A DNA stretch of 35,851 bases from a virus. The DNA lies in the UHGV virus genome UHGV-0135983, one strand, 5' to 3'. Shown piece after piece: positions 1,178 through 29,744 of the stretch (positions are counted from its first letter, which is position 1; each line of letters opens with the position of its first letter). Below the pieces are notes generated by a model. It ran no database searches and was not told where the DNA came from. It saw nothing but the letters and a program-made list of their open reading frames with translations. A program made the translations under genes and the position numbers.

Positions 1178-1183
1178 AAATAT

Positions 1184-3304: not shown

Positions 3305-3321
3305 ATGGGGAACTCCGGCGG

Positions 3322-5270: not shown

Positions 5271-5299
5271 AAAAAAGCCCCGTGGTTATCCATAGGGCT
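5271..5299 (-). terminator. Intrinsic terminator-like hairpin plus U6 immediately upstream of the small-terminase ATG
   Basis: Minus-strand RNA is AGCCCU (5299-5294), a 12-nt loop, GGGGCU (5281-5276), then UUUUU and AUG. The stem has 5 Watson-Crick pairs plus one G.U pair. Confidence 0.45.
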
Positions 5300-5333
5300 A
5301 TAATGTGCCGGGCTAGAGGTCGGAATCCTGACT
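5300..5333 (-). promoter_or_regulatory. Late-promoter candidate c upstream of the terminase genes
   Basis: Minus strand reads AGTCAGGATTCCGACC-N12-CATTAT, ending 30 nt upstream of the ATG at 5270. Confidence 0.5.
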
Positions 5334-5404
5334 ATTGCATATGCAGCGATGTACGTATAAAACTAGCCGACATTAATATAATCATTTTCATTCAGAGGCT
5401 CCCT

Positions 5405-11447: not shown

Positions 11448-11452
11448 GTTTA

Positions 11453-11941: not shown

Positions 11942-11943
11942 CG

Positions 11944-14384: not shown

Positions 14385-14385
14385 G

Positions 14386-14949: not shown

Positions 14950-14962
14950 AGCCTTACCTCAG

Positions 14963-14992
14963 ATGAAAAAAGGCCGGGAGATATCCCCCGGC
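14963..14992 (-). terminator. Intrinsic terminator directly after the major capsid gene (T7 Tphi-like position)
   Basis: Minus strand reads GCCGGG, an 8-nt loop, CCCGGC, then CTTTTTTC. Confidence 0.6.
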
Positions 14993-15008
14993 AAAGGCAC
15001 CAGCGGCT

Positions 15009-15920
15009 TTATGCTACGAAATCGATGGCGACTACTTTGTTTTCCGCTGCGCGGCCTGCACCATAGGACGCATCGACGGAAATCTGAATGGTGTTGTTTT
15101 TATCGCGGCGCGGGCCGATATCGACGTTGTACTCTTCGCCGGTACCAAAATGCACAGCAGATTTACACCAGGCTGCGGCGGTTTTGGTGGTTACAGCGGG
15201 ATCACCTGCTGAAGCAGAATCCAGTTTTTCATACGCCAGCCACTTAAAGCCCAGCCAGTTACCAGACACTGCGCCTTCCTGCAGCATTTTCACTGCCATA
15301 AAGTCGGCGCTGGTCAGCGTGGTATCGCTGAGGATTTGGGTCAGCATGTCGGCGTTGTAGGTGATATACAGCTCTTCACCGTTCTGCTCGTCACACTCGT
15401 TACGGCGGAACATGGCTTTCGCGGCGATCAGCTTCGCTTTGGTCATCCCTGTACCGCCAGCAACGATTTTCTGCGATGCAGGCAAGGCAACTGGAGCGTA
15501 CGCGCCAGTATTGGAGGTTTTACGCAGAACGGTATCGAGCAGCGCGCGATAAATAACATCGTCTTTTTTGCGGTTGGATGCGGCCAGCGTCAGCTGCAAA
15601 TATGGCCCCTGCGGGTCAGCCAGCAGTTTGCGCAGGTCGCGCTTTTCCACTGGCACGAATACGCCATAGTCAGCCATCAGCGCATTACGGGTGCCGGCAT
15701 CAGGCAGATCCCAGACGGTATCACCGAAACGCTCGGTGATCTGGGTCATTTCGATGGTACCCATATCGTTGATGGTGAACGACGCACCGGTAATATTGCC
15801 ACGGTCGTAAACAGCAGCTTGCAGGCGGGAATCCTTCTGCTGTGCGGCAATTTCGAAAGAATCATGGAACTGCTGAACAAACGCAGCGGTGATCATGTTC
15901 TTAGCGGTATCAAATGACAT
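15009..15920 (-). CDS. Major capsid protein
   Basis: The ATG at 15920 follows a GGAG SD and gives MSFDTAKNMITAAF... The protein is 303 aa and lies between the scaffold and tail tubular genes. The longer ORF-track start at 16001 was rejected. Confidence 0.8.
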   Translation of the reverse strand: MSFDTAKNMITAAFVQQFHDSFEIAAQQKDSRLQAAVYDRGNITGASFTINDMGTIEMTQITERFGDTVWDLPDAGTRNALMADYGVFVPVEKRDLRKLLADPQGPYLQLTLAASNRKKDDVIYRALLDTVLRKTSNTGAYAPVALPASQKIVAGGTGMTKAKLIAAKAMFRRNECDEQNGEELYITYNADMLTQILSDTTLTSADFMAVKMLQEGAVSGNWLGFKWLAYEKLDSASAGDPAVTTKTAAAWCKSAVHFGTGEEYNVDIGPRRDKNNTIQISVDASYGAGRAAENKVVAIDFVA

Positions 15921-16056
15921 AACAATCACTCCAGAAAGTATCGCCTGCGGGGTATCGGTTTCCCGGCCCAAATCAGCACAATGCGGTTGGCGCTGGCGCA
16001 TTGCGGGAAAATCAGGTATCCGGCGTCCCCGCCGGGCTGGTTGTGGAGTGATTGTT
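15921..16056 (-). promoter_or_regulatory. Long-range 13-bp perfect anti-SD/SD pairing flanking the capsid 5' leader
   Basis: 16056-16044 (AACAAUCACUCCA) is the exact complement of 15933-15921 (UGGAGUGAUUGUU). The latter contains the capsid SD and abuts the AUG. Confidence 0.5.
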
Positions 16057-16084
16057 AGCGAGGAGAGCGGTCGGAATCCCGACC
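16051..16084 (-). promoter_or_regulatory. Late-promoter candidate b upstream of the capsid gene
   Basis: Minus strand reads GGTCGGGATTCCGACC-N12-AACAAT. Confidence 0.5.
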
Positions 16085-16109
16085 AAATGAGCGAAAGTAA
16101 GCCGTGCTG

Positions 16110-16994
16110 TTACCCTCTGGGTTCTTTTATCCTATAACCTGTGCCAGGCATGAATTCATCAATAACTCTTGCCGCGTGACCTATAACTCGAAACGCTGAG
16201 CGTGCTTCTTCATCGGTAATTTTAGTCGCTTTAGTCGGGTCATAATCAGGAGTTTGGTCATCGTCAAAATGTACTCGATAGCCAAATTTTGATATTTCTC
16301 TGAAAATGGAACTAACTGACCTATCAATAGTTGCCATAGTGTCCATTAATCTATTTTTATCCTCCTCAATTTTATTTTTTATTTTCTCATAAGGGCCTAG
16401 CTCATCTACTAAATCTTTAAGAGCATCCGACTTAGAATTTATTTCACCTTCAATTTCATTAAGTTTCCCTTCCGCCAACTCAAGCTTCGAACTTAAAATA
16501 TTAAATTGTTCTTCAGCTTCTTCATATGACTTCTTAATGCTCTCGATATCATGTGTAACTTTAGTAACCTTGAGTTCTTCTTCTGCATTCCTTTTTGCAA
16601 ACAGAGATGTTTGATAAGCTAGTGCGCTATCTGCTTTAGCTGTGTATTCAGCAATGATTTCACGAGCCTCACTCTCAGATTTTGCCCTTTTGATATCGTT
16701 ACCATCAGCGATTTTTTGCGCGCATCTTTGAAAAAAACTCACAGCATGACTAGCATAAGGAAAAAGAACGGCAATAATAAAACCCAAAAGGATAGGAGCA
16801 ACTACAGAATACCAAAAAATACATGGTTCACTTTTCACTTTAATGATTCTATCTTGTAGTTCTCCACTACCCATTAAAACTATCAATAAACTATCCCAGT
16901 TAAACCCCAGCCATGAGAGGACTATGAACCCGAAAAGAGGAGTGTTTATTCTTTGAATTAAAGTTTTCTTTACCGCATCAGCTAATTCGTCCAT
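16110..16994 (-). CDS. AT-rich moron: membrane-anchored coiled-coil protein of unknown function
   Basis: The protein is 294 aa with two predicted TM helices (res ~18-42 and ~57-80). A ~120-aa heptad-like charged region and a C-terminal globular part follow. The gene has its own promoter-like ATGACT-17-TTAAAT and an AAGGG SD. Confidence 0.7.
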   Translation of the reverse strand: MDELADAVKKTLIQRINTPLFGFIVLSWLGFNWDSLLIVLMGSGELQDRIIKVKSEPCIFWYSVVAPILLGFIIAVLFPYASHAVSFFQRCAQKIADGNDIKRAKSESEAREIIAEYTAKADSALAYQTSLFAKRNAEEELKVTKVTHDIESIKKSYEEAEEQFNILSSKLELAEGKLNEIEGEINSKSDALKDLVDELGPYEKIKNKIEEDKNRLMDTMATIDRSVSSIFREISKFGYRVHFDDDQTPDYDPTKATKITDEEARSAFRVIGHAARVIDEFMPGTGYRIKEPRG

Positions 16995-17066
16995 ACGCTT
17001 ACCCTTATGAAGAAACTATCGAAGGATATTTAAGAGTAAAAGGCAAGAAAAGTCATTAACTTTAAA

Positions 17067-17095
17067 TAGAAAAAGCCAGCGAAGTTATACTGGCC
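17067..17095 (-). terminator. Intrinsic terminator after the scaffold gene, upstream of the moron
   Basis: Minus strand reads GCCAG, a 10-nt loop, CTGGC, then TTTTTCTATTT. Confidence 0.55.
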
Positions 17096-17115
17096 TTTGA
17101 TATTACCGTGGCGTG

Positions 17116-17964
17116 TCACACTACGGTTTGCTCGCCGTAACGCTTCTGGTAGTACGCTTTAACCTGTGCAGATACGCGTTCATGGTCGGTATGCTTCGGA
17201 TTCATGTACGCTTCGGACTTCATCAGGTCGCGGATTGATTGCTGCTCTGCCGGGTTGCTGTCTGCGCCCGCTGGCGCGTCTTCCTGCATTTCCGCACCGA
17301 TTTTCGCCAGCATGCGGATCACCATCGGGTTATTGCCGATTTCATCAATGCGGCCGCGATCACCTTCATCGGTCAGGGAATTGAACGCGCGGAAAGCCAG
17401 ACCGATATTCTTGTTAAATTCCGCGTCAGTCTTCCAGACTTCGCGCAGCTGCGTGGTGGCCGCCTCCGAATCCAGCGCCGCGGCGCCGTTGACCAGTTCA
17501 GGCGCAATCTGCGCGTATTCGCTGATAATAAATCCCATCTGATCGTTAGTGATGCCCTTGGCGTGCGCCGACTTCATGAATGATTGCATGCGGGGATCGG
17601 CCTTGAACTCGTCCCAGTTGAAGCCCTCGGCCTTCACCTCAGGTGCATAATCATCTGCCGTTTTCGGCGGCGCGTCGCCGCTGCCCATGCGCTTTTCAAG
17701 GTGCGAGTAAGCATGCGCCAGTTTGCGGGCAGAGCCTTCAATGTCGAGTTTTCCACCTTCGCCCATAACGCGGTATTTTTCAGGTATCCAGTCATTCGCG
17801 CCCGGTTCGCCCGCTCCGGTGCTGAGAAGTGTATTGCCAGCAGAATTATCAGCGCCCTGATTTTCAGTACCACCGCCATTGCCACCATCATTACCCCCTG
17901 TGCTGCCTGCTGGCGCTTCGGCGCCCTGCTCGGCGTTCATGAATAAGTGTTTAATCTTCCACAT
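17116..17964 (-). CDS. Scaffolding protein
   Basis: The protein is 282 aa, acidic and low-complexity (a GGNDGGNGGG tract). It lies between the portal and capsid genes. Confidence 0.65.
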   Translation of the reverse strand: MWKIKHLFMNAEQGAEAPAGSTGGNDGGNGGGTENQGADNSAGNTLLSTGAGEPGANDWIPEKYRVMGEGGKLDIEGSARKLAHAYSHLEKRMGSGDAPPKTADDYAPEVKAEGFNWDEFKADPRMQSFMKSAHAKGITNDQMGFIISEYAQIAPELVNGAAALDSEAATTQLREVWKTDAEFNKNIGLAFRAFNSLTDEGDRGRIDEIGNNPMVIRMLAKIGAEMQEDAPAGADSNPAEQQSIRDLMKSEAYMNPKHTDHERVSAQVKAYYQKRYGEQTVV

Positions 17965-18184
17965 CGTCGTTTACTCCATCTACACGGTTGATTTGCATCA
18001 GAATGAAATCGAGCACGGCACGTTGTCCGGCCCGGTAACAGGTTTCGCGGTCGCCCTCGGCGCCGCCGGGAACGTATGCCGCACGCCCGAATCGGCGCGT
18101 TAAATCATCCAGTACCTGCGTGCCGCCCGGCATTTCCTCGAAAATGCGTTTGTAGTCCGCCGGTGATACTTGTTTAGTAGCCAT
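17951..18184 (-). CDS. Small hypothetical virion-module protein
   Basis: The protein is 77 aa and is coupled to the portal stop (ATG at 18184 overlaps TAA). Confidence 0.5.
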   Translation of the reverse strand: MATKQVSPADYKRIFEEMPGGTQVLDDLTRRFGRAAYVPGGAEGDRETCYRAGQRAVLDFILMQINRVDGVNDDVED

Positions 18185-19806
18185 TAACCCCCCGCTACTC
18201 GTTGGCCCAGTGCTGCGCCTGCCTGCTGCCCTGCGGCGGTTGCCGCTTCGCTACCTGCCTGCATCATTAGCGCTTGCCCTGCCTGTTGCTGCTGCGCCTG
18301 CTGGCGCTGCTGGCGAAGTTGCTCGACGGCATCAGACGAGCGAATGACTTTCGCCGGTACGCCCAGCGCATCCGCTATCACGCGGGTCGCTTCGTCGGTG
18401 TCGATTAGGTCGGTGACTTCTGGTGATACCTGCGCCAGATTGGCCACGTTCGCGCCAAGGCGTTCAATAGCGGTGACGTTTTCCAGCTGCTGCGCGCGGG
18501 CAAGCGGCGAGATATAGCGCACGTTGAAATTGGCGTTTTGCAGGCTATCCGGCGCTGGCGGGAATACACCGGCGCGGAATGCCAGACCGAAACAGCGTTC
18601 TACCAGTGGTTGCAGGTATTCAGCCTGGAATCGGCCATAGACCGGGCCGAGCAGCTGGCGGATCAGCGCGACACGCACATGCACTTCGGTAGCGGTCATT
18701 GCCGGGCCGTCCTGCGGTTGCAGCTGGTCGGCCATCATGATTTTGCGGATCGACGCCTGCAGGCGTTCTTCTGCAGTAAACGCCACGTTGAAATCGGCGC
18801 CGGTGAGCAACGGTTTCATGCTGTCTACGCTGTTCGCCACGATGATGCGGCGCGGGCCGACCTTGACCGTGCGCGGATTGAGTACGCCGTCATCTTCGGC
18901 AATCCACATCCCGGCGATAGCCAGATCCTGCGCGGCTTTCTCCATGCGCTTCGTTTCGTTCAGCTCTTTGCAGTCCGGCAGCGCGTCGTATACCGGGCCG
19001 ATACCGTACGGCGTGCCGGGGATTTTCATCCAGCGCGGTACGCAGCAGGGGAATTCGTGATAGCCGGATTCGCGCACGATGAGCTTGCCGCTCACCTCCA
19101 CGTTGTACGATGCAAAGCGCAGGTTTTTAGCCAGGCGCGCATTCACCACGTAGTTTTCACGCGGGAAAATGCAGTGCAGGAAGTCGAATTTGTCATCCGG
19201 CTTTTTGGCGGCTGCGTCGCGAATCTTCTTGCTGACCTTATCCGCGCCGAATTCTTTAATCGCCTGCTCTGCGGTGAGCTGGTAGCGGCGATAAATCGTG
19301 TCCACGATGCCGTCGCGACGGGTGGAAGTGACAAAGCACTGCGCCAGCGGCCACTGCTGGAACGAGAATCCGCCCTCTTCGCGGTCTTCGTCGATGTACA
19401 GCGCAAACCAGCCAGCACACACCACATCGAGATTCACCTCGTAGCCTTCGGCGTCGAAATTGGCGGCGTGGATGTTTTCCCATACCAGCGTTGCGCAGGT
19501 GGACAACCACGCGGCGGCATCATCCGGCAGCGATTCGCTGTCGAGGTTCAGCCACTGCGCGTTTGCCGGGGTCATGCCGGACATGAGAGCAGACGCCAGC
19601 ATGCGGGCGCTGTCGGTGGCCGTGCCGTCAAGCAGCCGTGCCACCTTCGATTTCGCGCTCTGTGCGTCCAGCACCTCATCGGATAGCCCCGCGCCGCGCA
19701 GCGGATAGGTGTAGTCGTAGCATTCCCGCCAGACACTTTCGTGCACCTGTCGGTTGGCTTTCAGCGTATCGGCACGCTTAACCAGCTTTACGGCGAGTTC
19801 ATCCAT
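18184..19806 (-). CDS. Portal (head-to-tail connector, T7 gp8-class)
   Basis: The N-terminal pattern RQVHESVWRECYDYTYPLRG...DGTATDSARMLASALMSGMTP is typical of podovirus connector proteins. The protein is 540 aa. Confidence 0.85.
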   Translation of the reverse strand: MDELAVKLVKRADTLKANRQVHESVWRECYDYTYPLRGAGLSDEVLDAQSAKSKVARLLDGTATDSARMLASALMSGMTPANAQWLNLDSESLPDDAAAWLSTCATLVWENIHAANFDAEGYEVNLDVVCAGWFALYIDEDREEGGFSFQQWPLAQCFVTSTRRDGIVDTIYRRYQLTAEQAIKEFGADKVSKKIRDAAAKKPDDKFDFLHCIFPRENYVVNARLAKNLRFASYNVEVSGKLIVRESGYHEFPCCVPRWMKIPGTPYGIGPVYDALPDCKELNETKRMEKAAQDLAIAGMWIAEDDGVLNPRTVKVGPRRIIVANSVDSMKPLLTGADFNVAFTAEERLQASIRKIMMADQLQPQDGPAMTATEVHVRVALIRQLLGPVYGRFQAEYLQPLVERCFGLAFRAGVFPPAPDSLQNANFNVRYISPLARAQQLENVTAIERLGANVANLAQVSPEVTDLIDTDEATRVIADALGVPAKVIRSSDAVEQLRQQRQQAQQQQAGQALMMQAGSEAATAAGQQAGAALGQRVAGG

Positions 19807-19809
19807 CGA

Positions 19810-20031
19810 TTATGCCCCTAAGGTGTTTTTTGCTGCCTGGGCGCCAGAGGAAAGCAGGGATGAACCTGTATCCGTCGCGCCTTCTGCGCCGCTGGCCAGC
19901 AGGGATGATCCCTGTTTGCGCTTTTTGCGCGCTGCGGCGTCGGCGTTCGCTGCCTTTGCTGCGGCGTCGGCTGCTGCATCTGCCTCAGCCTGCGGATCCT
20001 GCTGTACAACTTTGGGTGCGCTACCACACAT
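19810..20031 (-). CDS. Small Ala-rich hypothetical protein
   Basis: A strong AAGGAG SD lies 7 nt upstream of the ATG. The protein is 73 aa. Confidence 0.55.
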   Translation of the reverse strand: MCGSAPKVVQQDPQAEADAAADAAAKAANADAAARKKRKQGSSLLASGAEGATDTGSSLLSSGAQAAKNTLGA

Positions 20032-20961: not shown

Positions 20962-21264
20962 TTAAATTCTGCATAAGCGTAATTCCTTTACCTCGCTAGT
21001 GACCTGTTCGAGCAATTCAGTCTCCGTTCCGTAGTTTTCTTCCCATGTTTTTTGCCCTGCGTGGATAGCTACGCCGTGTCCGCCGGTTCTGTGGTGTGGA
21101 GGGCAAAGCGGGAGAGTTTCTTTGTGGTCGGCGCGCTGGGCTATGCCCTGCCCTTTGCGGATATGGTGAACCTCTGCAGGTGTAGCGCCGTAGCCAAGAT
21201 TTCTGCATACGACGCAACCCAGTGATGCAACGTCTTCCAGCCAGCGTTTATCGTCTTTGGTCAT
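20962..21264 (-). CDS. Ref-like RecA-dependent HNH-type nuclease (DUF968-like)
   Basis: Motifs are CVVC...EVHHIR...LPLCPPHH...H. Confidence 0.65.
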   Translation of the reverse strand: MTKDDKRWLEDVASLGCVVCRNLGYGATPAEVHHIRKGQGIAQRADHKETLPLCPPHHRTGGHGVAIHAGQKTWEENYGTETELLEQVTSEVKELRLCRI

Positions 21265-21275: not shown

Positions 21276-21872
21276 TCAGGCGGCATAGCTGAATAATTGC
21301 GAGGCTGCGTTTTCTGCTGCCTGCTGATTGGGGAATGTGCGGAATAAAATAAAATTCCAGAGGACGTCTAATACGGATTTATACAGCTGAGAAAATTCTA
21401 CATCGTCCATTTTTGCGAACGATATGGATTTGGGTTCCTTGCGGGTAGTGCCATCAGGCATCTGGTATTCGGTATAAAAACCGGCTTCGATAGTTACCCA
21501 GGAACGGAACGCTTCAAACGATTTAACCGCACTAATATTTCCGGCGCGTTTTTCTGCTTCATCGCGGAGATACTGATCAGCCAGTTCCTGCAATGTGTCG
21601 GCATGCCCGGCATAGTGGGCCACCAGCTGCACGTAACCACGAACCAGTTTTTTATCGGCTGGCGATATTGCACCGCCGGAAGGTTGCCAGTAATCAAATC
21701 CCAGATTCAGGAGGGCAAAAAATTTGCGGTGGAACGCCGGGTTTCTTGCCTGCTTAAAATCCGCATACAGAATACCGCCCATGCGAACTTTTTTTTCTAA
21801 GAATTCGCGGGCGTCAGGCGTTGCTGGAATTAATACACCGCCAGGTGCTTTTACAAAAGAATACTGCGCCAT
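21276..21872 (-). CDS. DUF1367-like phage protein
   Basis: The N-terminus MAQYSFVKAPGGVLIPATP...ADFKQARNPAFHRKFFALLNLGF matches my recollection of this family. Confidence 0.55.
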   Translation of the reverse strand: MAQYSFVKAPGGVLIPATPDAREFLEKKVRMGGILYADFKQARNPAFHRKFFALLNLGFDYWQPSGGAISPADKKLVRGYVQLVAHYAGHADTLQELADQYLRDEAEKRAGNISAVKSFEAFRSWVTIEAGFYTEYQMPDGTTRKEPKSISFAKMDDVEFSQLYKSVLDVLWNFILFRTFPNQQAAENAASQLFSYAA

Positions 21873-21940
21873 TGGGTTCCCCTTTAGCGCAGCAATTGTT
21901 CAGAATTACATGGTGTTGGGTGTTCAGGCCAACGGGGTAA

Positions 21941-22132
21941 TTATAGCATATTGCCGTCTGGTTTGATAATGGTATAACCAGTCAATTTAGCTAATTCAAA
22001 CAACGCGTTAAGTGTCGCTACGTGCTCATCGGAATGGACGATTCTCGTCTTCTTAATTTTGCCCTTTTTACATGTTATCAGCACATCACCATCATCGGGG
22101 AGAAGGTCTCCTGCATCTTTCTTATCAATCAC
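21941..22132 (-). CDS. Small AT-rich protein behind a LexA box, a candidate SOS-controlled antirepressor
   Basis: The maximal ORF runs to a TTG at 22201, but the predicted promoter and SOS box lie inside that extension. GTG at 22132 lies 5 nt after GGGAG and gives 63 aa. Confidence 0.45.
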   Translation of the reverse strand: MIDKKDAGDLLPDDGDVLITCKKGKIKKTRIVHSDEHVATLNALFELAKLTGYTIIKPDGNML

Positions 22133-22152
22133 TACCTCTCCCTCGCTGATAA

Positions 22153-22201
22153 TACTGTATAAATTCACAGTATATATACTACCAACTGACAGTGAGCGCA
22201 A
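22153..22201 (-). promoter_or_regulatory. Sigma70-like promoter followed immediately by a LexA (SOS) box
   Basis: The promoter is TTGCGC (22201-22196), 17 nt, TATATA (22178-22173). The box TACTGTGAATTTATACAGTA (22172-22153) has intact CTGT-N8-ACAG arms. It has 3 mismatches to TACTGTATATATATACAGTA, all in the spacer. Confidence 0.7.
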
Positions 22202-22261: not shown

Positions 22262-22288
22262 CAAAAGAAAACCGCCATTTCTGGCGGT
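22262..22288 (-). terminator. Intrinsic terminator after gene 22315-22653
   Basis: Minus strand reads ACCGCCA, GAAA, TGGCGGT, then TTTCTTTTG. The stem is a 7-bp perfect match. Confidence 0.7.
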
Positions 22289-22314
22289 TCTGTTTTATCT
22301 GGTATGGTTGTTCG

Positions 22315-22653
22315 CTATGCTGACAATTTAGTTTCGTGCCACCCTCGCGTTACCCAGCATTTCGAATCACCAGCGCACGGGCAGGAGGTGATCGGCAGCG
22401 ACTCACCGCATTTTCTACACAGACGTTTGCTGATCGATTTGATATGGCCACTAAGCCGCGCATCATCCTGACGGATCAGCATAGATATATACTCGGCCAG
22501 TTCGTACGGTTCACGGCCCGGGCGCCGGGCGGCGCAGTTACGCGCCAGCATGTCCATTTCCTGCGCATCGAGAACCAGCTCAATTTTCCGGTTGCCGGCG
22601 GCAGATTGCCGCGCCCTCTGCGCGGCTTTACGTTCTGCGGATGATTTAGCCAT
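22315..22653 (-). CDS. Hypothetical protein with a C-terminal Cys cluster
   Basis: The protein is 112 aa. CRKCGESLPITSCPCAGDSKC looks like a zinc ribbon. The SD is GAGAAGG. Confidence 0.55.
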   Translation of the reverse strand: MAKSSAERKAAQRARQSAAGNRKIELVLDAQEMDMLARNCAARRPGREPYELAEYISMLIRQDDARLSGHIKSISKRLCRKCGESLPITSCPCAGDSKCWVTRGWHETKLSA

Positions 22654-22686: not shown

Positions 22687-23520
22687 TCATGCTGCACGCT
22701 CCTGTTTCTGTTGTGCTGCAGGGTTAAGCCAGAGGCATTCAGTACGGACTTTCGTACCGCGCCCGGCACTGATGCGCGATGCTTTCTCGGTCTTCGCCCA
22801 GCCGGATAGCATGTCGTTGTAGACATCAGTGTCGTAACCGCTAATCATCACCATGCCTTTCATCGTTCTGGACACAGCGAGCAATTGCTCATGCCCTTCA
22901 ACGGTCATTTCATGGTTGTAATAACGATTTTTCTGCACTCGTGTTTCCGGCATATATGGCGGATCGATGTAATGCAGCGTCGTTTCTGCGTCGTGGGCGC
23001 GCATTACCGCCAGAGCGTCTTTGTTCTCGATGATGACTCCTTGAAGGCGCTGACAGACAACAGCGAGATTAGCCGGGTAACGCTCCCATAGATGCGCCGC
23101 CGTAGCGTATTTGCGTTTGCTGTCGCTGCGGAAGCCGGATTGACCGCCGATACCTGCGGCAGAGCCGAACCCCATACAGGCACGAACCACCATGCGGCGG
23201 GCGCGTTCGATAGGGTCAGTGGCTGGTTGCTGAGCGTGACAGAACTCATCGCGTGAATACGGGGTCAGGCAACAGGCATCCTGCAGGCGCTGGTTTAATT
23301 CAGGGTCGCGCAATACACGAAACAGGTTCACCACCTCGCCGTCGAGATCGTTGTACACCTCTGAATAGCTACGCGCTTTTTGTAGCAATACGCCAGCAGC
23401 CCCGCCGAACGGTTCGACATAGCAGACGTGTTCCGGCATCTGCTCGATAATCCAGTGTGCCAGTCGGAATTTCCCGCCGTGATATCTGATTACAGGATGC
23501 CTGATTTTTTTTTCAATCAT
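22687..23520 (-). CDS. dam: Dam-type (D12 class) N6-adenine DNA methyltransferase
   Basis: Motifs are EPFGGAAGV (SAM binding) and IDPPY. The protein is 277 aa. Confidence 0.85.
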   Translation of the reverse strand: MIEKKIRHPVIRYHGGKFRLAHWIIEQMPEHVCYVEPFGGAAGVLLQKARSYSEVYNDLDGEVVNLFRVLRDPELNQRLQDACCLTPYSRDEFCHAQQPATDPIERARRMVVRACMGFGSAAGIGGQSGFRSDSKRKYATAAHLWERYPANLAVVCQRLQGVIIENKDALAVMRAHDAETTLHYIDPPYMPETRVQKNRYYNHEMTVEGHEQLLAVSRTMKGMVMISGYDTDVYNDMLSGWAKTEKASRISAGRGTKVRTECLWLNPAAQQKQERAA

Positions 23521-23699: not shown

Positions 23700-24290
23700 C
23701 TATGCTACCTCCCCGATATATTCTGCAATGCCCGGCAGCAGCGCCACCGCTGGCGATTCACACTGGTTGCCCCACACGTCGAAACCATGCGACGACTGGC
23801 GGGCGAATAACTCAATACGCGGTACATCGCCCAGCAGCTGCACCAGCTTTTCGCGCACGATATCCGGTTTGCGCGAATGCTCCAGACGCGGGGCCGTGAA
23901 TGACTGAACGATCCCGGCATCCAGCCGGGCGGGTAATTTCCCCTGCACAGCGAAAAGGCAATCTTCACTGTTCGCCCTGGTCATATGGCCCATTCCTATG
24001 GCCAGTTTGTCGGTCTGCCGGCTGTAGCATTTGTTCCACGTAAAGCCTTTCATGGTCATCAGGCGGAAGCCCCACGCCTCGACTACTCGCAACGCCTCCA
24101 GCGGCTGAGTCGGTACCCACCACATAGCCAGCAGGCAGTTTTCAGCGGCCAGTTCCCAGACCGGAAGACGGCAGATATCGAGCACAGTCATGGTCTGGTA
24201 TTTATGCCCGACGCCACGCTCGCCATCTTTGGCTTTATCGCGGTACGTCCAGGGCGGATCGCAATAAATTAAAGTGTATTTTTCATTCAT
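23700..24290 (-). CDS. MT-A70 family N6-adenine methyltransferase
   Basis: IYCDPPWTY carries the DPPW motif. The protein is 196 aa. Confidence 0.8.
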   Translation of the reverse strand: MNEKYTLIYCDPPWTYRDKAKDGERGVGHKYQTMTVLDICRLPVWELAAENCLLAMWWVPTQPLEALRVVEAWGFRLMTMKGFTWNKCYSRQTDKLAIGMGHMTRANSEDCLFAVQGKLPARLDAGIVQSFTAPRLEHSRKPDIVREKLVQLLGDVPRIELFARQSSHGFDVWGNQCESPAVALLPGIAEYIGEVA

Positions 24291-24817
24291 TATTTCGAAT
24301 CCTTAATAATATTGGCAACACGATTAAATGATTCATACGTTTCAATGTTTCTTGAGAAATTAAGGAGCCTTGTCTTACCAGATGGATAAACCCGACCTGA
24401 ATAAGTCTTGTTCTGCGTTCTAAATTCAATTGTTTGTTTTATAGAACCAATATTTTTATCACTAACAATCTCACTAGCAGCCATAAAACCCACTTTTTCC
24501 TCTTCAATTACAACGAACGCGTAAAAGTCACAGGAACCATAATTAGTTGCTCTGCAAGTTCCTTTCCCTGTTCTGGTGCTGAACCGAAAAACATTCTTCG
24601 ACTTTCCATAGTCGCGCATACACAAGGTTGTTCTGACTTGCCCTCTTAATAAATACTCGCCAGATTGAACAACTATATCGTATGGCAATCCTTGGTCTGA
24701 GGGGAAACATATAAAACCCTGCTTACTGAGTTTAAATATGGCGTAATACTCACCACATTTGCCAAGTTCTAACTCGCTCGAAAAATCGCTTATGTTTATA
24801 TCAATAGTCCCATTCAC
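24290..24817 (-). CDS. PD-(D/E)XK nuclease-fold protein (PDDEXK_5-like), AT-rich
   Basis: The pattern is GKCGEYYAIFKLSKQGF...PYDIVV...LRGQVRT...CDFYAFVV, i.e. E ... D ... Q-V-[K>R]. Its stop overlaps the MT-A70 ATG (TAATG). Confidence 0.6.
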   Translation of the reverse strand: MNGTIDINISDFSSELELGKCGEYYAIFKLSKQGFICFPSDQGLPYDIVVQSGEYLLRGQVRTTLCMRDYGKSKNVFRFSTRTGKGTCRATNYGSCDFYAFVVIEEEKVGFMAASEIVSDKNIGSIKQTIEFRTQNKTYSGRVYPSGKTRLLNFSRNIETYESFNRVANIIKDSK

Positions 24818-25924: not shown

Positions 25925-27331
25925 TTAAAATGCATCGGTATTGAATTTCTCAGAGTATTTACGGGGTTGTTTCCGGGGTTTCGCGGCCTCCAGTTGGATA
26001 CGTGTTTTCTCTTTGCCAACATGCTGATCCATTGACAGAAAGTGTCCGTTTTTAAATTCCTGATAAATAATTGCTCCTGCGGCGCTGAAGCGGCTTTTAC
26101 CCAGGATAATTTCAGCGACGCCAGCCGCCGGGCTTTCCGGGTTGTAAACCTCATCGCGGTACAGAAACATGATGCTGTCGGCGTCCTGCTCAATGGATCC
26201 GGAATCACGCAGGTCTGACATGACCGGGCGACGCTGAGCCGCAGGGCGGGAATCGACGGCGCGGGAAAGCTGGCTAAGCGCGAACGTCGGCGTATGCAGG
26301 CGCATAGCCATAGTTTTTAGGTTTCGGGATATGTGGGCGATCGCAAGGTCGTTACGCTCTGCCTTCGGTTTTTTAATCAGGCCAACGTAATCGACAACGA
26401 TCATCGCCAGATGCGGATACCGGCGCTTATGCGTTTCGGCAACGGCGCGGATTTGCTCAATCGTCAGATCGGTAGCATCAACGATCCAGATATCGCGCCC
26501 GTTCATGGTCTCCATGGCCGCTGTAAAGCGCGCCCAGTCCTCGTCCTGCATATCGAGGGGATTACGCAGGCGTGACACTGACATGTTTCCAGAACCCGCC
26601 AGAGAGCGTTCTACGATTTGCGCAGCGGCCATTTCCATGCTGAATATCAACGCGCCACCGCCGGCAGCGGTAACACCATCGACAATCTTCAGCGCAAATT
26701 CTGTTTTACCCATACCCGGACGCCCAGCGACGACAATCAAATCCTGCAGGTTAATTCCGCCGGTCGCATCGTCCAGTTCCTCGATCCCGGTTTTCAGGTT
26801 TCGGGTGCCCTCTTCGCCGTCCATGCGCTTCTGCATGGTTTCCATGTACACCGGCAATAATTCGCTCATGTGTACCGGCTGCACGTCGCCAGTGTCGCCG
26901 GTCATGTCCAGCAGCTGCGCAACGGCAGTTTCGACAACCTGATCGCGCTGTTCCTGGTTTATCGCATCACGAATACCATCCGCACCATCCTGCAGTAATT
27001 GCGCGATGGTTCTGCTTCGCCAGGCCTTAACCATTTTTTTGGCGTAGCCTTTGAGATTGACAATCGATGTCGGGAATTTGCAAATATCGGCGAGATTGGC
27101 CAGCGTCCCCTGTCCGCCAATGGCTTCGCTAATGTACATCATGTCAATTAAGCCGCCGCTCAAGGCCTGCGCTTTGATCACACCGTAAATCTGCCTGTAG
27201 TATGCGACGCTGAAAGCTTCGCTCGGAGTGCTGGCAATCACATCAAAGGCGTCTGGCGTGGCGCCACCGTTCATCAGGCAGCCAAGAACCAGACATTCCA
27301 GCTCCTGAGTGGAATACATCATCTGCATCAT
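25925..27331 (-). CDS. dnaB: Replicative DNA helicase (DnaB family)
   Basis: Walker A is GRPGMGKT. It has the typical DnaB C-terminal RecA-like domain, including IEQDADSIMFLYRDEVY. The protein is 468 aa. Confidence 0.9.
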   Translation of the reverse strand: MMQMMYSTQELECLVLGCLMNGGATPDAFDVIASTPSEAFSVAYYRQIYGVIKAQALSGGLIDMMYISEAIGGQGTLANLADICKFPTSIVNLKGYAKKMVKAWRSRTIAQLLQDGADGIRDAINQEQRDQVVETAVAQLLDMTGDTGDVQPVHMSELLPVYMETMQKRMDGEEGTRNLKTGIEELDDATGGINLQDLIVVAGRPGMGKTEFALKIVDGVTAAGGGALIFSMEMAAAQIVERSLAGSGNMSVSRLRNPLDMQDEDWARFTAAMETMNGRDIWIVDATDLTIEQIRAVAETHKRRYPHLAMIVVDYVGLIKKPKAERNDLAIAHISRNLKTMAMRLHTPTFALSQLSRAVDSRPAAQRRPVMSDLRDSGSIEQDADSIMFLYRDEVYNPESPAAGVAEIILGKSRFSAAGAIIYQEFKNGHFLSMDQHVGKEKTRIQLEAAKPRKQPRKYSEKFNTDAF

Positions 27332-28311
27332 AAAGCGCCCTCCCTGGTCTTACGCAATGTCTCTGGTTTCATCAGATAGTCAAAGCTGGCGCGCCATCCG
27401 CCATTTTCACCAAAGTAAAAATCGGAGGCGTCAGCGCGGAATTTTTCGAAATAGCCCAGAAATGCGCCCGTGGTTTTGTTTTTCATATGGGCGGCCAGAC
27501 GGGTGATCATCCGGCGGCGGTCTGTGTCCAGTTCAGCAGCAGGCAGAACGTCAGCAAAAATTTCGTTGTAGCCGTTCATAACGGCTTCCGGATCAATATC
27601 GGTTTCGGTCACCGCCCATGCTTCAGCGTCAGCGAGATAACCATCAAAGCGGTTTACCCGGCAGATGTTCGCTGGCTTCGGCAGGCTATCGCCACGGCGG
27701 CGCCATGTGGCCAGCACCCAGCGGATAACTAACTGCAATTCGTCCAGGGTGTACCCTTCCCGGGTGGTGGTCGGCGTCAGCATCATCACAAACGGTTTCA
27801 GGTCACGGCAGCGGGTACCGGTTTGCTCGTTGTAAAATTCCAGCGCTTTTTTAGCATCAGAATTAATTTTTTCATCGCCTTCCCCCGTCTGGGGGTTAGG
27901 GGGATCTTTAGGTTCTATGACTGGTTCAAAAGAGTGACTGGTTCTGGTGCCGCCACACGGCATAGGGGCTATGCTTTTTGGCGGCATACCTGTGCTTTCT
28001 GACGGCATAGGGGCTATGCTTTTTGGCGGCATAGGGTTATCAAGTTTCATACAGTACAAATTCGACGCGTTACCCTTCCCGTTTTTTACGCCCGGGCGAT
28101 TTTCTTTCACCAGCAGGCCCATGGAAATTAACGCATCGATATGGTCACGCACCGCGCTTTTGCTGCACTCGCAGTGATCCGCAATATGTTTGTAAGACGG
28201 CCAGCATTCGCCGTAATCATTGGCGTTATCAGCCAGTTTGATCAGCACCAGTTTTCGAATCGGGTTTCCGGTCTTGATTGCCATTGCTTTGGCCATAAGC
28301 GTCATACTCAT
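27328..28311 (-). CDS. Replication initiator: N-terminal winged-HTH plus phage conserved C-terminal domain
   Basis: The ATG at 28311 follows the upstream stop. The N-terminus is KLVLIKLADNANDYGECWPSYKHIADHCECSKSAVRDHIDALISMGLL. An ATGA overlap links it to dnaB. Confidence 0.75.
   Translation of the reverse strand: MSMTLMAKAMAIKTGNPIRKLVLIKLADNANDYGECWPSYKHIADHCECSKSAVRDHIDALISMGLLVKENRPGVKNGKGNASNLYCMKLDNPMPPKSIAPMPSESTGMPPKSIAPMPCGGTRTSHSFEPVIEPKDPPNPQTGEGDEKINSDAKKALEFYNEQTGTRCRDLKPFVMMLTPTTTREGYTLDELQLVIRWVLATWRRRGDSLPKPANICRVNRFDGYLADAEAWAVTETDIDPEAVMNGYNEIFADVLPAAELDTDRRRMITRLAAHMKNKTTGAFLGYFEKFRADASDFYFGENGGWRASFDYLMKPETLRKTREGAL
27958..28033. repeat. Iteron-like repeats inside the initiator gene (putative ori)
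   Basis: The 31-bp unit CGGCATAGGGGCTATGCTTTTTGGCGGCATA occurs twice (27958-27988 and 28003-28033). This gives four CGGCATA cores at about 22-23 bp spacing. An AT-rich patch at about 27861-27892 lies next to them. Confidence 0.6.
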
Positions 28312-28313
28312 AG

Positions 28314-28535
28314 TCAAATCCCCAGCGAGTCAGCCAACTGACGGCAGGCGATTTCGTATTCTTTCTGGGTGAGTCCCGCTTCCTGCAGGTCTGCCTTGCG
28401 CAGTTCATAGCGTTCCCAGATTGTCAGCGCAGTAGCGCGACGCTCTTCGAAAATCGATTCGATATCTTCCATCGGGACTTGTACCCCGTTCCGGCGAAAC
28501 CCATTCCGCCAGGTGATGCGGTCTTGTGTTCTCAT
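28314..28535 (-). CDS. Small protein with Arg-rich N-terminus
   Basis: The ATG at 28535 follows the GAGGAAAGACCAATG cassette and gives MRTQDRITWRNGFRRNG... Confidence 0.5.
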   Translation of the reverse strand: MRTQDRITWRNGFRRNGVQVPMEDIESIFEERRATALTIWERYELRKADLQEAGLTQKEYEIACRQLADSLGI

Positions 28536-28555: not shown

Positions 28556-29002
28556 TTAAACGCTGGTCAGGCGCTGTGTTTCTCGCATAGCTTGCAATGC
28601 TCTGGCGACTTGCTGCGGCCCGTCTCTGGCGTCGAGTAACAACGCGATAATCGCCGCTGCAAACTCGCGAATGGCCACACAAATTAAATACTGGGTGGAC
28701 ATACCCAAGCGCGCGTAACGTTCTGCCGGCAGCGCCGCTTCCATCGCTTTGACCAGCGCCAGAGTTTTGGCTCTCGCGGCTTTGGTCTCGCCTCGCAACC
28801 AACGAAAAATTTGTTGGCGGTTATTGTTGATTGCCCGCCAGTCGGCGTTTCCATCTGCATCTTCGATCTGGTGCAGCTTCAGCGAACCGGTATTACCACC
28901 AAGACGAAACCACATGCGGCTTATCTCGATAGCAACCAGCTCCTGCCCGCTTTCCGCTGCCCAGTTAAAGATCTCTCGTTTAAGTTCTTCGAGGTATTCC
29001 AC
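28556..29002 (-). CDS. CII-like / YdaT-family regulatory protein
   Basis: The protein is 148 aa with a GTG start after GGAG. It lies directly downstream of the YdaS/Cro-like gene, as in the Rac ydaS-ydaT pair. Confidence 0.5.
   Translation of the reverse strand: MEYLEELKREIFNWAAESGQELVAIEISRMWFRLGGNTGSLKLHQIEDADGNADWRAINNNRQQIFRWLRGETKAARAKTLALVKAMEAALPAERYARLGMSTQYLICVAIREFAAAIIALLLDARDGPQQVARALQAMRETQRLTSV
28559..28575 (-). promoter_or_regulatory. Hairpin with CUGACCA loop at the 3' end of the CII-like gene
   Basis: Minus-strand RNA reads AGCGC, CUGACCA, GCGUU. It includes a G.U pair that would be an A.C mismatch on the other strand. Confidence 0.45.
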
Positions 29003-29064: not shown

Positions 29065-29262
29065 TTATGCTTTAGACGTGTTTTGCTCTTCGTAAAAAGT
29101 AGGGTCGTATTTCAAGGCGCCTGCAGTTACATGCTCAAGTCGCGCAGCTCGCTTTTCAGGAACAACAGCACCCCAGCGGGTTACAGCGACTTGAGAGATA
29201 CCTAATGCACGCGCAACAGCGGTTTTAGTTCCAAAAAATCTGATAACAGTTTCGGTCTTCAT
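29065..29262 (-). CDS. cro: Cro-like HTH repressor (YdaS family)
   Basis: The HTH is GTKTAVARALGISQVAVTRW. The protein is 65 aa, has an AGGAGAGG SD, and is divergent from the repressor gene. Confidence 0.75.
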   Translation of the reverse strand: MKTETVIRFFGTKTAVARALGISQVAVTRWGAVVPEKRAARLEHVTAGALKYDPTFYEEQNTSKA

Positions 29263-29272: not shown

Positions 29273-29333
29273 CCTAACGTCAGTTAGGAACATAAATACT
29301 AACGAAAGTTATGTCAAGTTAACTTATATTATG
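29273..29333. promoter_or_regulatory. Immunity switch: three TAAC-N4-GTTA-type operators overlapping divergent promoters
   Basis: O1 is CCTAACGTCAGTTAGG (29273-29288). O2 is ACTAACGAAAGTTATG (29298-29313). O3 is GTTAACTTATATTATG (29318-29333, weaker). The minus-strand PR-like promoter is TTGACA (29317-29312), 17 nt, TATGTT (29294-29289). Confidence 0.6.
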
Positions 29334-29744
29334 GACATGAAAAAATTGACCTTTAACGATCGCATTACATCGAGACGGAAAGAGCTTGGCTTAACCCAAC
29401 AGCAGCTCGCCGATGCCGTTGGCATATCTGGCGTAAGCGTCTACAAGTGGGAAGCAGGTATTAACACCCCAAAAGGGCAAAATCTGTTTTCTCTCGCTGA
29501 GGCTCTTCGTTGCTCTCCGACATGGTTACTTAACGGAACCGATAGCGATGAACCGTTGAAGGCGGAAGACCTTTTACCTCGGTTAGATGATCGCCAAAAG
29601 CTATTGCTTGATCTTTTTGACTCCCTACCTGAATCAGAAAAAGATAGACACATCAATGAGTTGAAAGATAAAGTTGACGGATTCCAGCGATTGTTTGATG
29701 AGTTACTTTTGGTAAAAAAGAAAAAAAACACTCCAAAAAAATAA
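29331..29744 (+). CDS. cI: CI-like XRE-family repressor lacking an S24 peptidase domain
   Basis: The HTH is LTQQQLADAVGISGVSVYKWEAG. The protein is only 137 aa with a helical, charged C-terminus. There is no SD, and TATATT at 29325-29330 would give a leaderless mRNA starting at the second ATG (29337). Confidence 0.8.
   Translation: MDMKKLTFNDRITSRRKELGLTQQQLADAVGISGVSVYKWEAGINTPKGQNLFSLAEALRCSPTWLLNGTDSDEPLKAEDLLPRLDDRQKLLLDLFDSLPESEKDRHINELKDKVDGFQRLFDELLLVKKKKNTPKK

What the first reader, a model, noticed from the sequence alone, without database searches (positions are those of the whole stretch)
21941..22201. Near-consensus LexA box on the promoter of a small AT-rich gene, combined with a repressor lacking an autocleavage domain: a likely SOS-controlled antirepressor circuit
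TACTGTGAATTTATACAGTA (22172-22153, minus strand) has intact CTGT-N8-ACAG arms. It starts right after a TATATA -10 (22178-22173) that is paired with TTGCGC at 17-nt spacing, so LexA would sit on the transcription start.

The downstream ORF (63 aa from GTG 22132; 86 aa maximal) is AT-rich, follows a strong terminator (22262-22288) and has no recognisable family.

The CI-like repressor (29331-29744, 137 aa) has only an HTH plus a helical tail and no S24 Ser-Lys peptidase domain, so RecA-stimulated self-cleavage is unlikely. Coliphage 186 (Tum), N15 (AntC) and the Gifsy prophages solve this with LexA-repressed small antirepressors. This locus fits that scheme.

Its transcript would also run on toward the HTH and late region.
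Basis: partly seen in the sequence, partly recalled or inferred. Interest (0 to 1): 0.7.

Follow-up and report, generated by a model that had tools for sequence, protein, structure and literature searches.

The report
SOS-controlled small antirepressor of a prophage
A Klebsiella-type prophage carries a 63-residue gene behind a strong, widely conserved LexA binding site; the gene belongs to the Rem/FsoA/Gifsy family of small antirepressors and the phage's repressor is a DicA-type protein with no self-cleavage domain, so this is a good new example of an already known way of coupling prophage induction to DNA damage.

Summary
TACTGTGAATTTATACAGTA (22172-22153, minus strand) is the only strong LexA box in the window: 23.4 bits, and 0 of 300 resampled windows reach 20. 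It abuts a TTGCGC-17-TATATA promoter downstream of a terminator.

The 63-aa ORF (GTG 22132) falls in PHROG 340. That family also holds E. coli Rem (shown experimentally to antagonise DicA), the Fels-1 ORF in the mapped fsoA interval, and gene X of the dinI-X-irsA SOS operon of phage mEp237. The same domain ends larger proteins with KilA-N, P22_AR_N or Rha N-termini.

The 137-aa repressor is 44% identical to DicA, passes NCBIfam's DicA cutoff, is homologous to Gifsy-2 GtgR and has no S24 domain. The next gene is 56% identical to Gifsy-2 irsA, so the layout matches Gifsy without dinI.

In 70 of 72 related loci (protein identity down to 40%) a 16-27 bit LexA box lies 14-54 nt upstream of the ORF. 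All 57 loci that reach the immunity region encode 128-154-aa repressors with varied HTH domains and one shared C-terminal tail.

Verdict: a new member of a known kind. Binding, induction and specificity remain untested.

The parts
22268..22291 (-). Rho-independent terminator that insulates the SOS promoter from upstream early transcription
   Evidence: 10-bp stem, 4-nt loop and a T-run. The Gifsy LexA loci are likewise preceded by terminator-like palindromes (PMC3121763).
22173..22201 (-). Putative sigma-70 promoter: -35 TTGCGC (22201-22196), 17-nt spacer, -10 TATATA (22178-22173)
   Evidence: Read directly from the sequence. The same geometry is conserved in relatives as TTGCG(A/C)-17-TATA(A/T)A directly 5' of the box. 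The hexamers are weak and the generic scan did not list them.
22153..22172 (.). LexA (SOS) box TACTGTGAATTTATACAGTA, covering the predicted transcription start
   Evidence: 23.4 bits; the only site of 10 bits or more in the window. 0 of 300 resamples reach 20 bits. A box of 16-27 bits lies 14-54 nt upstream of the ORF in 70 of 72 related loci.
21941..22132 (-). 63-aa small antirepressor candidate (GTG start, Shine-Dalgarno GAGG at 22144-22141; coordinates include the stop codon)
   Evidence: phrog_340, E 8e-22, shared with Rem, the probable FsoA and mEp237 gene X. hhalign to the Fels-1 ORF: probability 91%, E 9e-7. The domain is fused to KilA-N, P22_AR_N or Rha in other proteins.
21940..21948 (-). 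Extended -10-like element TGcTATAAT overlapping the ORF's stop codon; possible internal promoter for irsA
   Evidence: Listed by the promoter scan. TATAAT lies exactly 6 nt upstream of the hairpin in 67 loci, including L077, where it is non-coding.
21915..21933 (-). Conserved hairpin GTTGG-CCTGAACAC-CCAAC between the small ORF and irsA
   Evidence: The 5-bp core stem pairs in all 20 distinct sequences, with compensatory changes at 3 pairs and an invariant GAACA in the loop. One copy per locus, always at this junction. Function unknown.
21276..21872 (-). irsA homologue (DUF1367), second gene of the putative SOS operon
   Evidence: Pfam DUF1367, E 2.5e-84. 56% identical to Gifsy-2 STM1020/irsA. 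It directly follows the small ORF in 72 of 72 loci.
20962..21264 (-). Ref-like / DUF968 RecA-dependent nuclease homologue, possibly the third gene of the transcript
   Evidence: Pfam RecA_dep_nuc, E 2.7e-14. A terminator-like hairpin follows at 20864-20848.
29331..29744 (+). DicA-type lysogenic repressor (137 aa): N-terminal HTH_3 and a C-terminal helical tail, no S24. It is the presumed target of the antirepressor
   Evidence: Only HTH families in Pfam. NCBIfam DicA subfamily, 152.8 bits against a cutoff of 101. 44% identical to DicA, E 1e-39. 33% identical to Gifsy-2 GtgR, E 9e-13.
29604..29723 (+). Repressor C-terminal tail (residues 92-131, LLDLFDSLPESEKDRHINELKDKVDGFQRLFDELL), conserved across heteroimmune relatives
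   Evidence: In many loci only this segment matches, at 55-60% identity, while the HTH is replaced. All 41 distinct repressors from 57 loci share it.
29065..29262 (-). Cro-like regulator (P22_Cro / YdaS type), divergent from the repressor gene
   Evidence: Pfam P22_Cro, E 1.5e-21.
28556..29002 (-). YdaT / CII-like protein downstream of cro
   Evidence: Pfam YdaT_toxin, E 3e-21, and phrog_163 'CII-like'. Present in nearly all related loci.

Best explanation
The locus is the DNA-damage trigger of a Klebsiella-type temperate phage.

In the lysogen, host LexA sits on the box at 22172-22153. The box abuts the -10 hexamer and covers the transcription start of a promoter that a terminator insulates from upstream transcription. 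The 63-aa gene is therefore silent.

DNA damage activates RecA and LexA cleaves itself. The promoter then fires and a 63-residue protein of the Rem/FsoA/Gifsy antirepressor family is made from a weak GTG start. This protein binds the 137-aa DicA-type repressor, which has no autocleavage domain. Binding probably involves the conserved C-terminal tail and removes the repressor from its operators between 29263 and 29330. The divergent cro/ydaT early operon and lytic development are then released. The same SOS transcript probably also carries the irsA (DUF1367) and Ref-like genes.

Shown here by computation:
- the strength, position and conservation of the box;
- the family membership of both proteins;
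- the synteny with Gifsy;
- the absence of an S24 domain.

Inferred, not shown:
- LexA binding;
- the physical interaction between antirepressor and repressor, and where on the repressor it occurs;
- that this protein acts on its own phage's repressor.
For: LexA box:
- 23.4 bits and unique in the window. 0 of 300 resamples reach 20 bits.
- 70 of 72 related loci keep a 16-27 bit box 14-54 nt upstream of the ORF, although protein identity falls to 40%, the spacer of the box varies, and the flanking promoter context differs. In L014 homology breaks exactly at the edge of the box.
- The rest of these loci holds 5 sites of 15 bits or more in 1.27 Mb. At least one of those sits beside a dinI homologue.
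- An E. coli phage homologue (42% identity) has the same box-ORF-irsA module.

Protein family:
- phrog_340, E 8e-22.
- Rem is phrog_340, E 4e-21, and relieves DicA repression 165-fold (PMC10448788).
- The Fels-1 78-aa ORF in the fsoA interval is phrog_340, E 1e-26. hhalign to the ORF63 family gives probability 91%.
- mEp237 gene X, between dinI and irsA, is phrog_340, E 1e-20. It also hits GftA's phrog_4847.
- The domain is C-terminal to KilA-N, P22_AR_N and Rha modules in other proteins.

Repressor:
- NCBIfam DicA subfamily above cutoff; 44% identical to DicA; homologous to GtgR; no S24.
- 57 of 57 loci that reach the immunity region have 128-154-aa repressors with the shared tail.

Synteny with the Gifsy SOS operon; PMC3121763.
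Against: - There is no experimental evidence for this protein or this box.
- Direct similarity to the validated members is low. BLASTP and hhalign find nothing to GftA. hhalign to Rem gives only 39% probability, E 3e-4. The link therefore rests on PHROG profiles and intermediates.
- That the Fels-1 ORF is FsoA is inferred from the mapped interval, not from a published sequence.
- Family members are not always LexA-controlled: the Rem clade has no box.
- The AlphaFold model has low confidence (pLDDT 63) and no significant structural match.
- The promoter hexamers are weak.
Confidence: 0.8

Rival explanations
1. The gene is SOS-induced and is an antirepressor, but its real target is the repressor of other, co-resident prophages (trans-acting crosstalk) or a host protein. 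Induction of its own phage would then go by another route.
For: [quoted passage not shown] The small ORF stays 75% identical or more across Klebsiella loci whose repressors have quite different HTH domains. The antirepressor is therefore not matched one-to-one to an immunity type.
Against: Unlike Fels-1, this phage has no cleavable CI-type repressor that could provide another SOS route. Every locus that reaches the immunity region has a repressor with the same conserved tail, which fits a cognate target. In Gifsy phages with this same wiring the antirepressor is required for induction of its own phage.
Confidence: 0.1
2. The LexA box exists mainly to put the downstream recombination and repair genes (irsA/DUF1367 and the Ref-like RecA-dependent nuclease) under SOS control. 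The 63-aa ORF would be a small leader or passenger gene with no role in the lysis-lysogeny switch.
For: irsA follows the ORF in 72 of 72 loci. The next gene is a RecA-dependent-nuclease homologue, a plausible SOS function. In Gifsy the LexA operon also carries dinI and irsA.
Against: The ORF is a conserved protein family with validated antirepressor members. In Gifsy, deletions of dinI or irsA had no effect on induction, whereas the small ORF was necessary and sufficient (PMC3121763). A conserved TATAAT with a 5' hairpin suggests that irsA has its own promoter. Both roles could coexist.
Confidence: 0.07
3. The palindrome is a chance match in AT-rich intergenic DNA and the ORF is not expressed under LexA control.
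For: The minimal CTGT-N8-ACAG motif alone is expected 0.27 times per window. The promoter hexamers are weak.
Against: 0 of 300 resamples reach 20 bits against the observed 23.4. The box is conserved in 70 of 72 loci, including distant genera and different flanking sequence.
Confidence: 0.01

Closest known systems
Gifsy-1/-2/-3 antirepressors GfoA, GftA, GfhA with repressors GfoR, GtgR/GftR, GfhR (Salmonella; Lemire, Figueroa-Bossi & Bossi 2011, PMC3121763)
   Same: - Short HTH repressor without a cleavage domain; the window's repressor is homologous to GtgR.
- Small antirepressor gene outside the immunity region, with a non-ATG start.
- The gene lies behind a terminator and a LexA box that overlaps the promoter, and is followed by irsA (56% identity).
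- Same position, downstream of the replication genes.
- Gene X of Gifsy-type operons in mEp237 and SPN3UB falls in or next to the same PHROG.
   Different: - There is no dinI gene between the LexA box and the antirepressor.
- No pairwise similarity to GftA itself is detectable.
- The host is Klebsiella-type.
- The structural module is unrelated to Gifsy; it shows only a weak match to the podovirus TL-2011b.
Rem / DicA of the E. coli Qin prophage (Ragunathan & Vanderpool 2023, PMC10448788)
   Same: - The small ORF and Rem share phrog_340.
- The repressor is 44% identical to DicA and passes NCBIfam's DicA model.
- The immunity region has the same dicA-cro/ydaS-ydaT type layout.
- A hairpin with a CTGAAC loop follows both genes.
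   Different: - Rem is 83 aa and only distantly similar (hhalign E 3e-4).
- Rem-clade genes (Qin, mEp460_ev081, PPompW, a Rac-like phage) follow hok/gef and have no LexA box (best site below 7 bits). Their inducing signal is reported as unknown.
- In the window the signal is evidently SOS.
FsoA of Fels-1 (Lemire et al. 2011)
   Same: The Fels-1 78-aa ORF in the mapped fsoA interval is phrog_340, and hhalign relates it to the ORF63 family at 91% probability.
   Different: fsoA sits in the early left operon under the cleavable Fels-1 repressor, not under LexA, and acts on a foreign repressor (GtgR).
Tum of coliphage 186 and AntC of N15 (LexA-controlled antirepressors)
   Same: The logic is the same: a LexA-repressed promoter drives a small protein that inactivates a non-cleavable repressor (own knowledge; cited in PMC3121763).
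   Different: Tum is 146 aa with a DinI-like half. No sequence relation to the window's ORF was tested or found here. The phage types differ (P2-like; linear plasmid prophage).
Large Ant-type antirepressors (P22 Ant; KilA-N, P22_AR_N or Rha proteins)
   Same: The 63-aa domain recurs as the C-terminal module of such proteins (P0070, P0084, P0090). It also weakly matches the C-termini of two 'anti-repressor' PHROGs.
   Different: The window's protein is the stand-alone domain without any N-terminal module. P22 ant is controlled by Arc/Mnt, not LexA (own knowledge).

Membership tests
LexA-controlled small antirepressor module of the Gifsy type | Consensus LexA box overlapping the promoter of the antirepressor operon | tested here: met
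   23.4-bit box directly 3' of the -10 hexamer. Conserved in 70 of 72 loci. 0 of 300 resamples reach 20 bits. LexA binding itself was not tested.
LexA-controlled small antirepressor module of the Gifsy type | Location outside the immunity region, downstream of the replication genes, preceded by a terminator and followed by irsA | tested here: met
   Terminator at 22291-22268. The DnaB-type and initiator genes lie upstream at 25925-28317. The irsA homologue is 56% identical. The Gifsy layout is given.
LexA-controlled small antirepressor module of the Gifsy type | dinI homologue as the first gene of the operon | tested here: not met
   tblastn with Gifsy-2 DinI finds nothing in the window or next to the ORF in the 72 loci. 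The box directly precedes the small ORF. dinI was dispensable for induction in Gifsy, so this is a variant layout rather than a functional difference.
LexA-controlled small antirepressor module of the Gifsy type | Repressor is short, has no S24 Ser-Lys domain and is not cleaved on induction | tested here: met
   137 aa with only HTH Pfam hits. No S24-like hit by tblastn. Homologous to GtgR. The absence of cleavage in vivo cannot be tested with these tools.
LexA-controlled small antirepressor module of the Gifsy type | The small protein binds the repressor and removes it from DNA; it is necessary and sufficient for induction | not testable with these tools
   This needs genetics and biochemistry. 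A paired-alignment complex prediction was not possible under the tool's input limits.
Rem/FsoA small antirepressor protein family (PHROG 340) | Significant match to the family profile over the full length | tested here: met
   phrog_340, E 7.7e-22, residues 1-62. Rem E 4.4e-21. Fels-1 ORF E 1.1e-26. mEp237 gene X E 1.4e-20.
Rem/FsoA small antirepressor protein family (PHROG 340) | Direct profile-to-sequence homology to an experimentally validated member | tested here: inconclusive
   hhalign to Rem: probability 39%, E 3e-4. To the Fels-1 ORF: probability 91%, E 9e-7, but its identity with FsoA is inferred from the mapped interval. To GftA: nothing.
DicA-type prophage repressors | Passes the curated DicA subfamily model, with an HTH_3 N-terminus and the conserved C-terminal tail | tested here: met
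   NF007257, 152.8 bits against a cutoff of 101. 44% identical to K-12 DicA over 133 residues. The tail motif LPESEK...FxxLFEELL is shared.
Lambda CI / LexA-type self-cleaving repressors | C-terminal S24 peptidase domain with a Ser-Lys dyad and an Ala-Gly cleavage site | tested here: not met
   No Peptidase_S24 hit. Lambda CI matches only the HTH region, and LexA does not match. 137 aa is too short to hold both domains.

The most novel reading that the evidence does not exclude
The roughly 40-residue C-terminal tail (…L(F/Y)xxLPxSEK(E/D)RH…(F/Y)xxLFxELL…) may be a portable docking module for the Rem/ORF63-type antirepressor. It is shared by repressors with at least four unrelated HTH domains, and by DicA and GtgR. 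If so, one LexA-controlled 63-aa protein could fire many heteroimmune prophages at once in polylysogenic Klebsiella, and immunity specificity and induction specificity would evolve separately. In addition, the covarying hairpin with the invariant GAACA loop, preceded at a fixed 6 nt by TATAAT between the antirepressor and irsA, may be an undescribed cis-regulatory RNA. It is conserved across the window's Klebsiella-type relatives, Serratia, Symbiopectobacterium, E. coli and Salmonella Gifsy phages.
Probability: 0.35. Interest if true: 0.5.

Novelty: new member of a known kind. Interest (0 to 1): 0.32.

Why it matters
It assigns a testable function to a protein family that public Klebsiella, Raoultella and Serratia genomes label 'hypothetical'. 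It explains how a common class of Klebsiella-type prophages with non-cleavable DicA-like repressors senses DNA damage. That is relevant to prophage induction by fluoroquinolones and mitomycin C in a clinically important genus.

It also shows that one antirepressor family is wired in three ways: directly to LexA in this clade and in Gifsy-type operons, into an early operon in Fels-1, and to an unknown signal in the Rem clade. This frames the open question about Rem.

The mechanism itself has been known since 2011, so the conceptual gain is modest.

Tried and rejected
- Pfam and NCBIfam scans of the 63-aa ORF found nothing. One homologue carries a precomputed PF27490 that is absent from the local Pfam copy, so it could not be named.
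- BLASTP and hhalign against GftA found no similarity.
- A sequence search of the PDB gave only an insignificant hit, so the solved Rep-Ant complex of phage SPC32H (own knowledge) is not a sequence relative.
- The AlphaFold2 model has pLDDT 63. Foldseek against the PDB gave nothing significant. The best hits, paratox/Prx at E 0.8, are intriguing because Prx blocks an HTH regulator, but they are not evidence.
- Rfam found no known RNA family in the window.
- I tested whether Rem-clade genes have LexA boxes. They do not, so 'Rem is SOS-controlled' was rejected.
- I considered a nut/boxB-like role for the hairpin. It occurs only once per locus and its loop is 9 nt, so this has no support.
- I considered predicting the repressor-antirepressor complex with a fused sequence.
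- Two papers that mention antirepressors and LexA (PMC11893012 and others) were not relevant.

Full report
**1. The observation**

On the minus strand the window reads ...agtTTGCGCtcactgtcagttggtagTATATA-TACTGTGAATTTATACAGTA-ttatcagcGAGGgagaggtaGTGattgataag.... TTGCGC is at 22201-22196, followed by a 17-nt spacer and TATATA at 22178-22173.

The bare CTGT-N8-ACAG motif occurs once in the window. That alone is not remarkable: 0.27 are expected and 23 of 100 shuffles have one. The full site is a different matter.

- I built a symmetrised PWM from 29 E. coli SOS boxes listed from memory (Lewis 1994; Fernandez de Henestrosa 2000). This list is my own knowledge, not a curated file.
- On that PWM the site scores 23.4 bits, in the upper quartile of the real boxes.
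- It is the only site of 10 bits or more in 35.8 kb.
- None of 300 first-order Markov resamples of the window reaches 20 bits.

The other features check out as follows.

- The upstream terminator is real: 22291-22268, a 10-bp stem followed by a T-run.
- The promoter hexamers are weak (3/6 and 4/6), and the generic scan did not list them.
- The ORF is 86 aa at most. The 63-aa form from GTG 22132 has a GAGG 8 nt upstream and is the form annotated in a related phage record.
- The predicted transcription start lies downstream of the TTG that opens the 86-aa form.
- The ORF has GC 0.41 against 0.52 for the window.

**2. The small ORF**

Pfam and NCBIfam have no model for it. PHROGs does: phrog_340, annotated 'unknown function', E 8e-22. 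There are weaker hits to the C-terminal parts of two 'anti-repressor' PHROGs.

Close homologues are 'hypothetical proteins' of Klebsiella, Raoultella and Serratia prophages. An exhaustive HMMER search of 1.84 billion representatives finds a small family: 58 clusters, mostly stand-alone proteins of 55-70 aa.

Three relatives carry the domain at the C-terminus of larger proteins. Their N-termini are KilA-N plus an Ant-like segment, P22_AR_N (the N-terminal domain of P22 antirepressor), or Rha.

The decisive links are to characterised proteins.

- E. coli K-12 Rem is phrog_340, E 4e-21. Ragunathan and Vanderpool showed that Rem relieves DicA repression of dicBp 165-fold, and they found Rem through PSI-BLAST chains from GfoA and FsoA (PMC10448788).
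- The Fels-1 78-aa ORF lies in the interval where Lemire et al. mapped fsoA. It is phrog_340, E 1e-26. hhalign relates it to the ORF63 family at 91% probability, E 9e-7.
- In coliphage mEp237 the gene between dinI and irsA is phrog_340, E 1e-20. It also touches phrog_1813 and GftA's phrog_4847.
- The corresponding gene of Salmonella phage SPN3UB is phrog_1813 with a secondary phrog_340 hit. Both of these operons are preceded by 24-25 bit LexA boxes.

Direct comparison with GftA itself finds nothing. The comparison with Rem is marginal: probability 39%, E 3e-4. A family alignment shows a common pattern, LP..G...ENG.V...R...(D/E)E.(A/S)L...ELA..AGY.

The AlphaFold model (beta hairpin, helix, strand) has pLDDT 63 and no significant structural neighbour.

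**3. The repressor**

The 137-aa protein at 29331-29744 has only HTH-type Pfam hits.

- It passes NCBIfam's 'transcriptional repressor DicA' subfamily at 152.8 bits against a cutoff of 101.
- It is 44% identical to K-12 DicA over 133 residues.
- It is 33% identical to the Gifsy-2 repressor GtgR, E 9e-13.
- No S24-like sequence is found in the window with LexA or lambda CI as queries.

The region has the dicA/racR type layout, with a divergent P22_Cro/YdaS-like gene and a YdaT/CII-like gene. Lemire et al. already placed DicA and RacR in the Gifsy repressor group.

**4. Synteny**

In Gifsy-2 the order is terminator, LexA box, dinI, gftA, irsA, about 1.3 kb downstream of the replication genes. 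In the window the order is terminator, LexA box, ORF63, then a DUF1367 gene that is 56% identical to Gifsy-2 irsA, downstream of the DnaB-type replication genes. The only difference is the absence of dinI, which was dispensable for Gifsy induction.

**5. Comparative test**

I fetched 72 loci that encode relatives of the ORF: 5 from genomes and 67 from viral contigs, at 40-97% protein identity.

- 70 loci have a LexA box of 16-27 bits ending 14-54 nt before the start codon. One exception is cut at a contig end, and one has no box.
- The rest of these loci (1.27 Mb) holds 5 sites of 15 bits or more. One lies beside a dinI homologue and three lie just upstream of the same module, so they are probably real sites too.
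- The arms of the box are kept while its centre varies.
- The box survives in at least two promoter geometries: directly after the -10, or just upstream of an extended -10.
- In L014 homology to the other loci ends exactly at the edge of the box.
- An E. coli phage homologue (42% identity) has TACTGTATAAATATACAGGT 20 nt before its ATG and is followed by irsA.
- irsA follows the ORF in 72 of 72 loci.
- All 57 loci whose flank reaches the immunity region encode repressors of 128-154 aa. They have at least four unrelated N-terminal HTH types but one shared C-terminal tail.

By contrast, genes of the Rem clade proper (Qin, mEp460_ev081, PPompW, a Rac-like phage) follow hok/gef and have no LexA box; the best site scores below 7 bits.

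**6. Mechanism**

The best-supported reading is the Gifsy scheme.

1. LexA occludes the promoter in the lysogen.
2. The SOS response removes LexA.
3. The 63-aa protein is made from a weak GTG start.
4. It binds the DicA-type repressor and releases the cro/ydaT early operon.

The site of interaction on the repressor is inferred only. The tail is the one feature that stays constant while the HTH domains are exchanged, and the antirepressor stays 75% identical or more across those exchanges. The tail may equally be just a dimerisation element.

Whether the SOS transcript reads through into the 98-aa HTH gene and the packaging genes cannot be decided. Terminator-like hairpins lie at 20864-20848 and 20573-20555.

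**7. Novelty**

The mechanism (Lemire 2011) and the DicA/Rem pair (2023) are known, and one GenBank record already labels a rem-irsA pair 'prophage antirepressor'. This is a new, well-supported member of that kind in a Klebsiella-type phage whose structural genes have almost no match among sequenced phages. It is a dinI-less variant of the layout.

The library search found no paper that ties this clade to LexA.

Points of modest added interest are the three different regulatory wirings within one antirepressor family, the portable repressor tail, and a covarying hairpin next to the gene.

Noticed in passing
window 21915-21933 (-), and 21940-21948 (-): A hairpin, GTTGG-CCTGAACAC-CCAAC, lies between the small ORF and irsA. 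Its 5-bp core stem pairs in all 20 distinct sequences, with compensatory changes at three pairs, and GAACA in the loop is invariant. It occurs once per locus, also after gftA in Gifsy-2, and in a variant form after rem in Qin. TATAAT (TGcTATAAT in the window) lies exactly 6 nt upstream in 67 loci, including one where it is non-coding. This may be an internal irsA promoter whose transcript begins with the hairpin. There is no Rfam match.
   Followed up: partly
window 29604-29723 (+); loci L003-L076, about 500-5000: Repressors with at least four unrelated N-terminal HTH domains (DicA-like, lambda-CI-N-like, GtgR-like and others; 128-154 aa) all end in the same tail of about 40 residues: L(F/Y)xxLPxSEK(E/D)RH...(F/Y)xxLFxELL. 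DicA and GtgR have it too. It looks like a portable module, either for dimerisation or for antirepressor docking.
   Followed up: partly
L079 4600-5130 (-); L081, L082, L083 around 1240-1500: The Rem clade proper (K-12 Qin, mEp460_ev081, PPompW phages, a Rac-like phage) has no LexA box upstream of rem; the best site scores below 7 bits. In these phages rem follows a hok/gef toxin gene and a terminator. A conserved GC-rich stretch (tagcgcgcaggga.aagagggatgg) precedes rem and may hold its unknown control element.
   Followed up: partly
L063 9512-9805; L065 9272 and 9665: Some relatives carry extra strong LexA boxes a few hundred bases upstream of the module. In L063 a 25.6-bit box precedes an unrelated 85-aa ORF (MGGKDQNYTIVYRGDF...) inserted before the antirepressor. 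It would be a second SOS-controlled small gene of unknown function.
   Followed up: partly
window 22315-22653 (-): A 112-aa protein (phrog_536, 'transcriptional regulator', no Pfam) with a Cys-rich C-terminus (CRKCGESLPITSCPCAGDSKC) lies directly upstream of the terminator. It is the upstream neighbour in most related loci, including Symbiopectobacterium and one of the two Serratia loci.
   Followed up: no
window 22687-23520 (-) and 23700-24290 (-): Two DNA adenine methyltransferase genes of different families (D12/Dam-like and MT-A70) lie almost side by side in the early region, followed by a PD-(D/E)XK nuclease-like gene at 24290-24817.
   Followed up: no
window 1-20000: The structural and packaging half of the element has almost no nucleotide match among 50,697 sequenced phages. 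The only hit is 6% coverage at 72% identity to the E. coli phage TL-2011b. IMG/VR holds many near-identical prophage contigs, so this is a common but uncultured phage type.
   Followed up: no
L001 (OM816834.1) 1604-2457: Two phages deposited as Stenotrophomonas phages (BUCT708 and BUCT709) carry an ORF63-irsA module 83% identical at the DNA level to this window, which otherwise matches enterobacterial prophages. The host attribution, or a recent transfer, deserves a look.
   Followed up: no
window 20962-21264 (-): The third gene of the putative SOS transcript is a 100-aa homologue of the Ref / RecA-dependent nuclease family (Pfam RecA_dep_nuc; DUF968 C-terminus). A RecA-filament-dependent nuclease placed downstream of a LexA-controlled promoter would be functionally coherent.
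   Followed up: no
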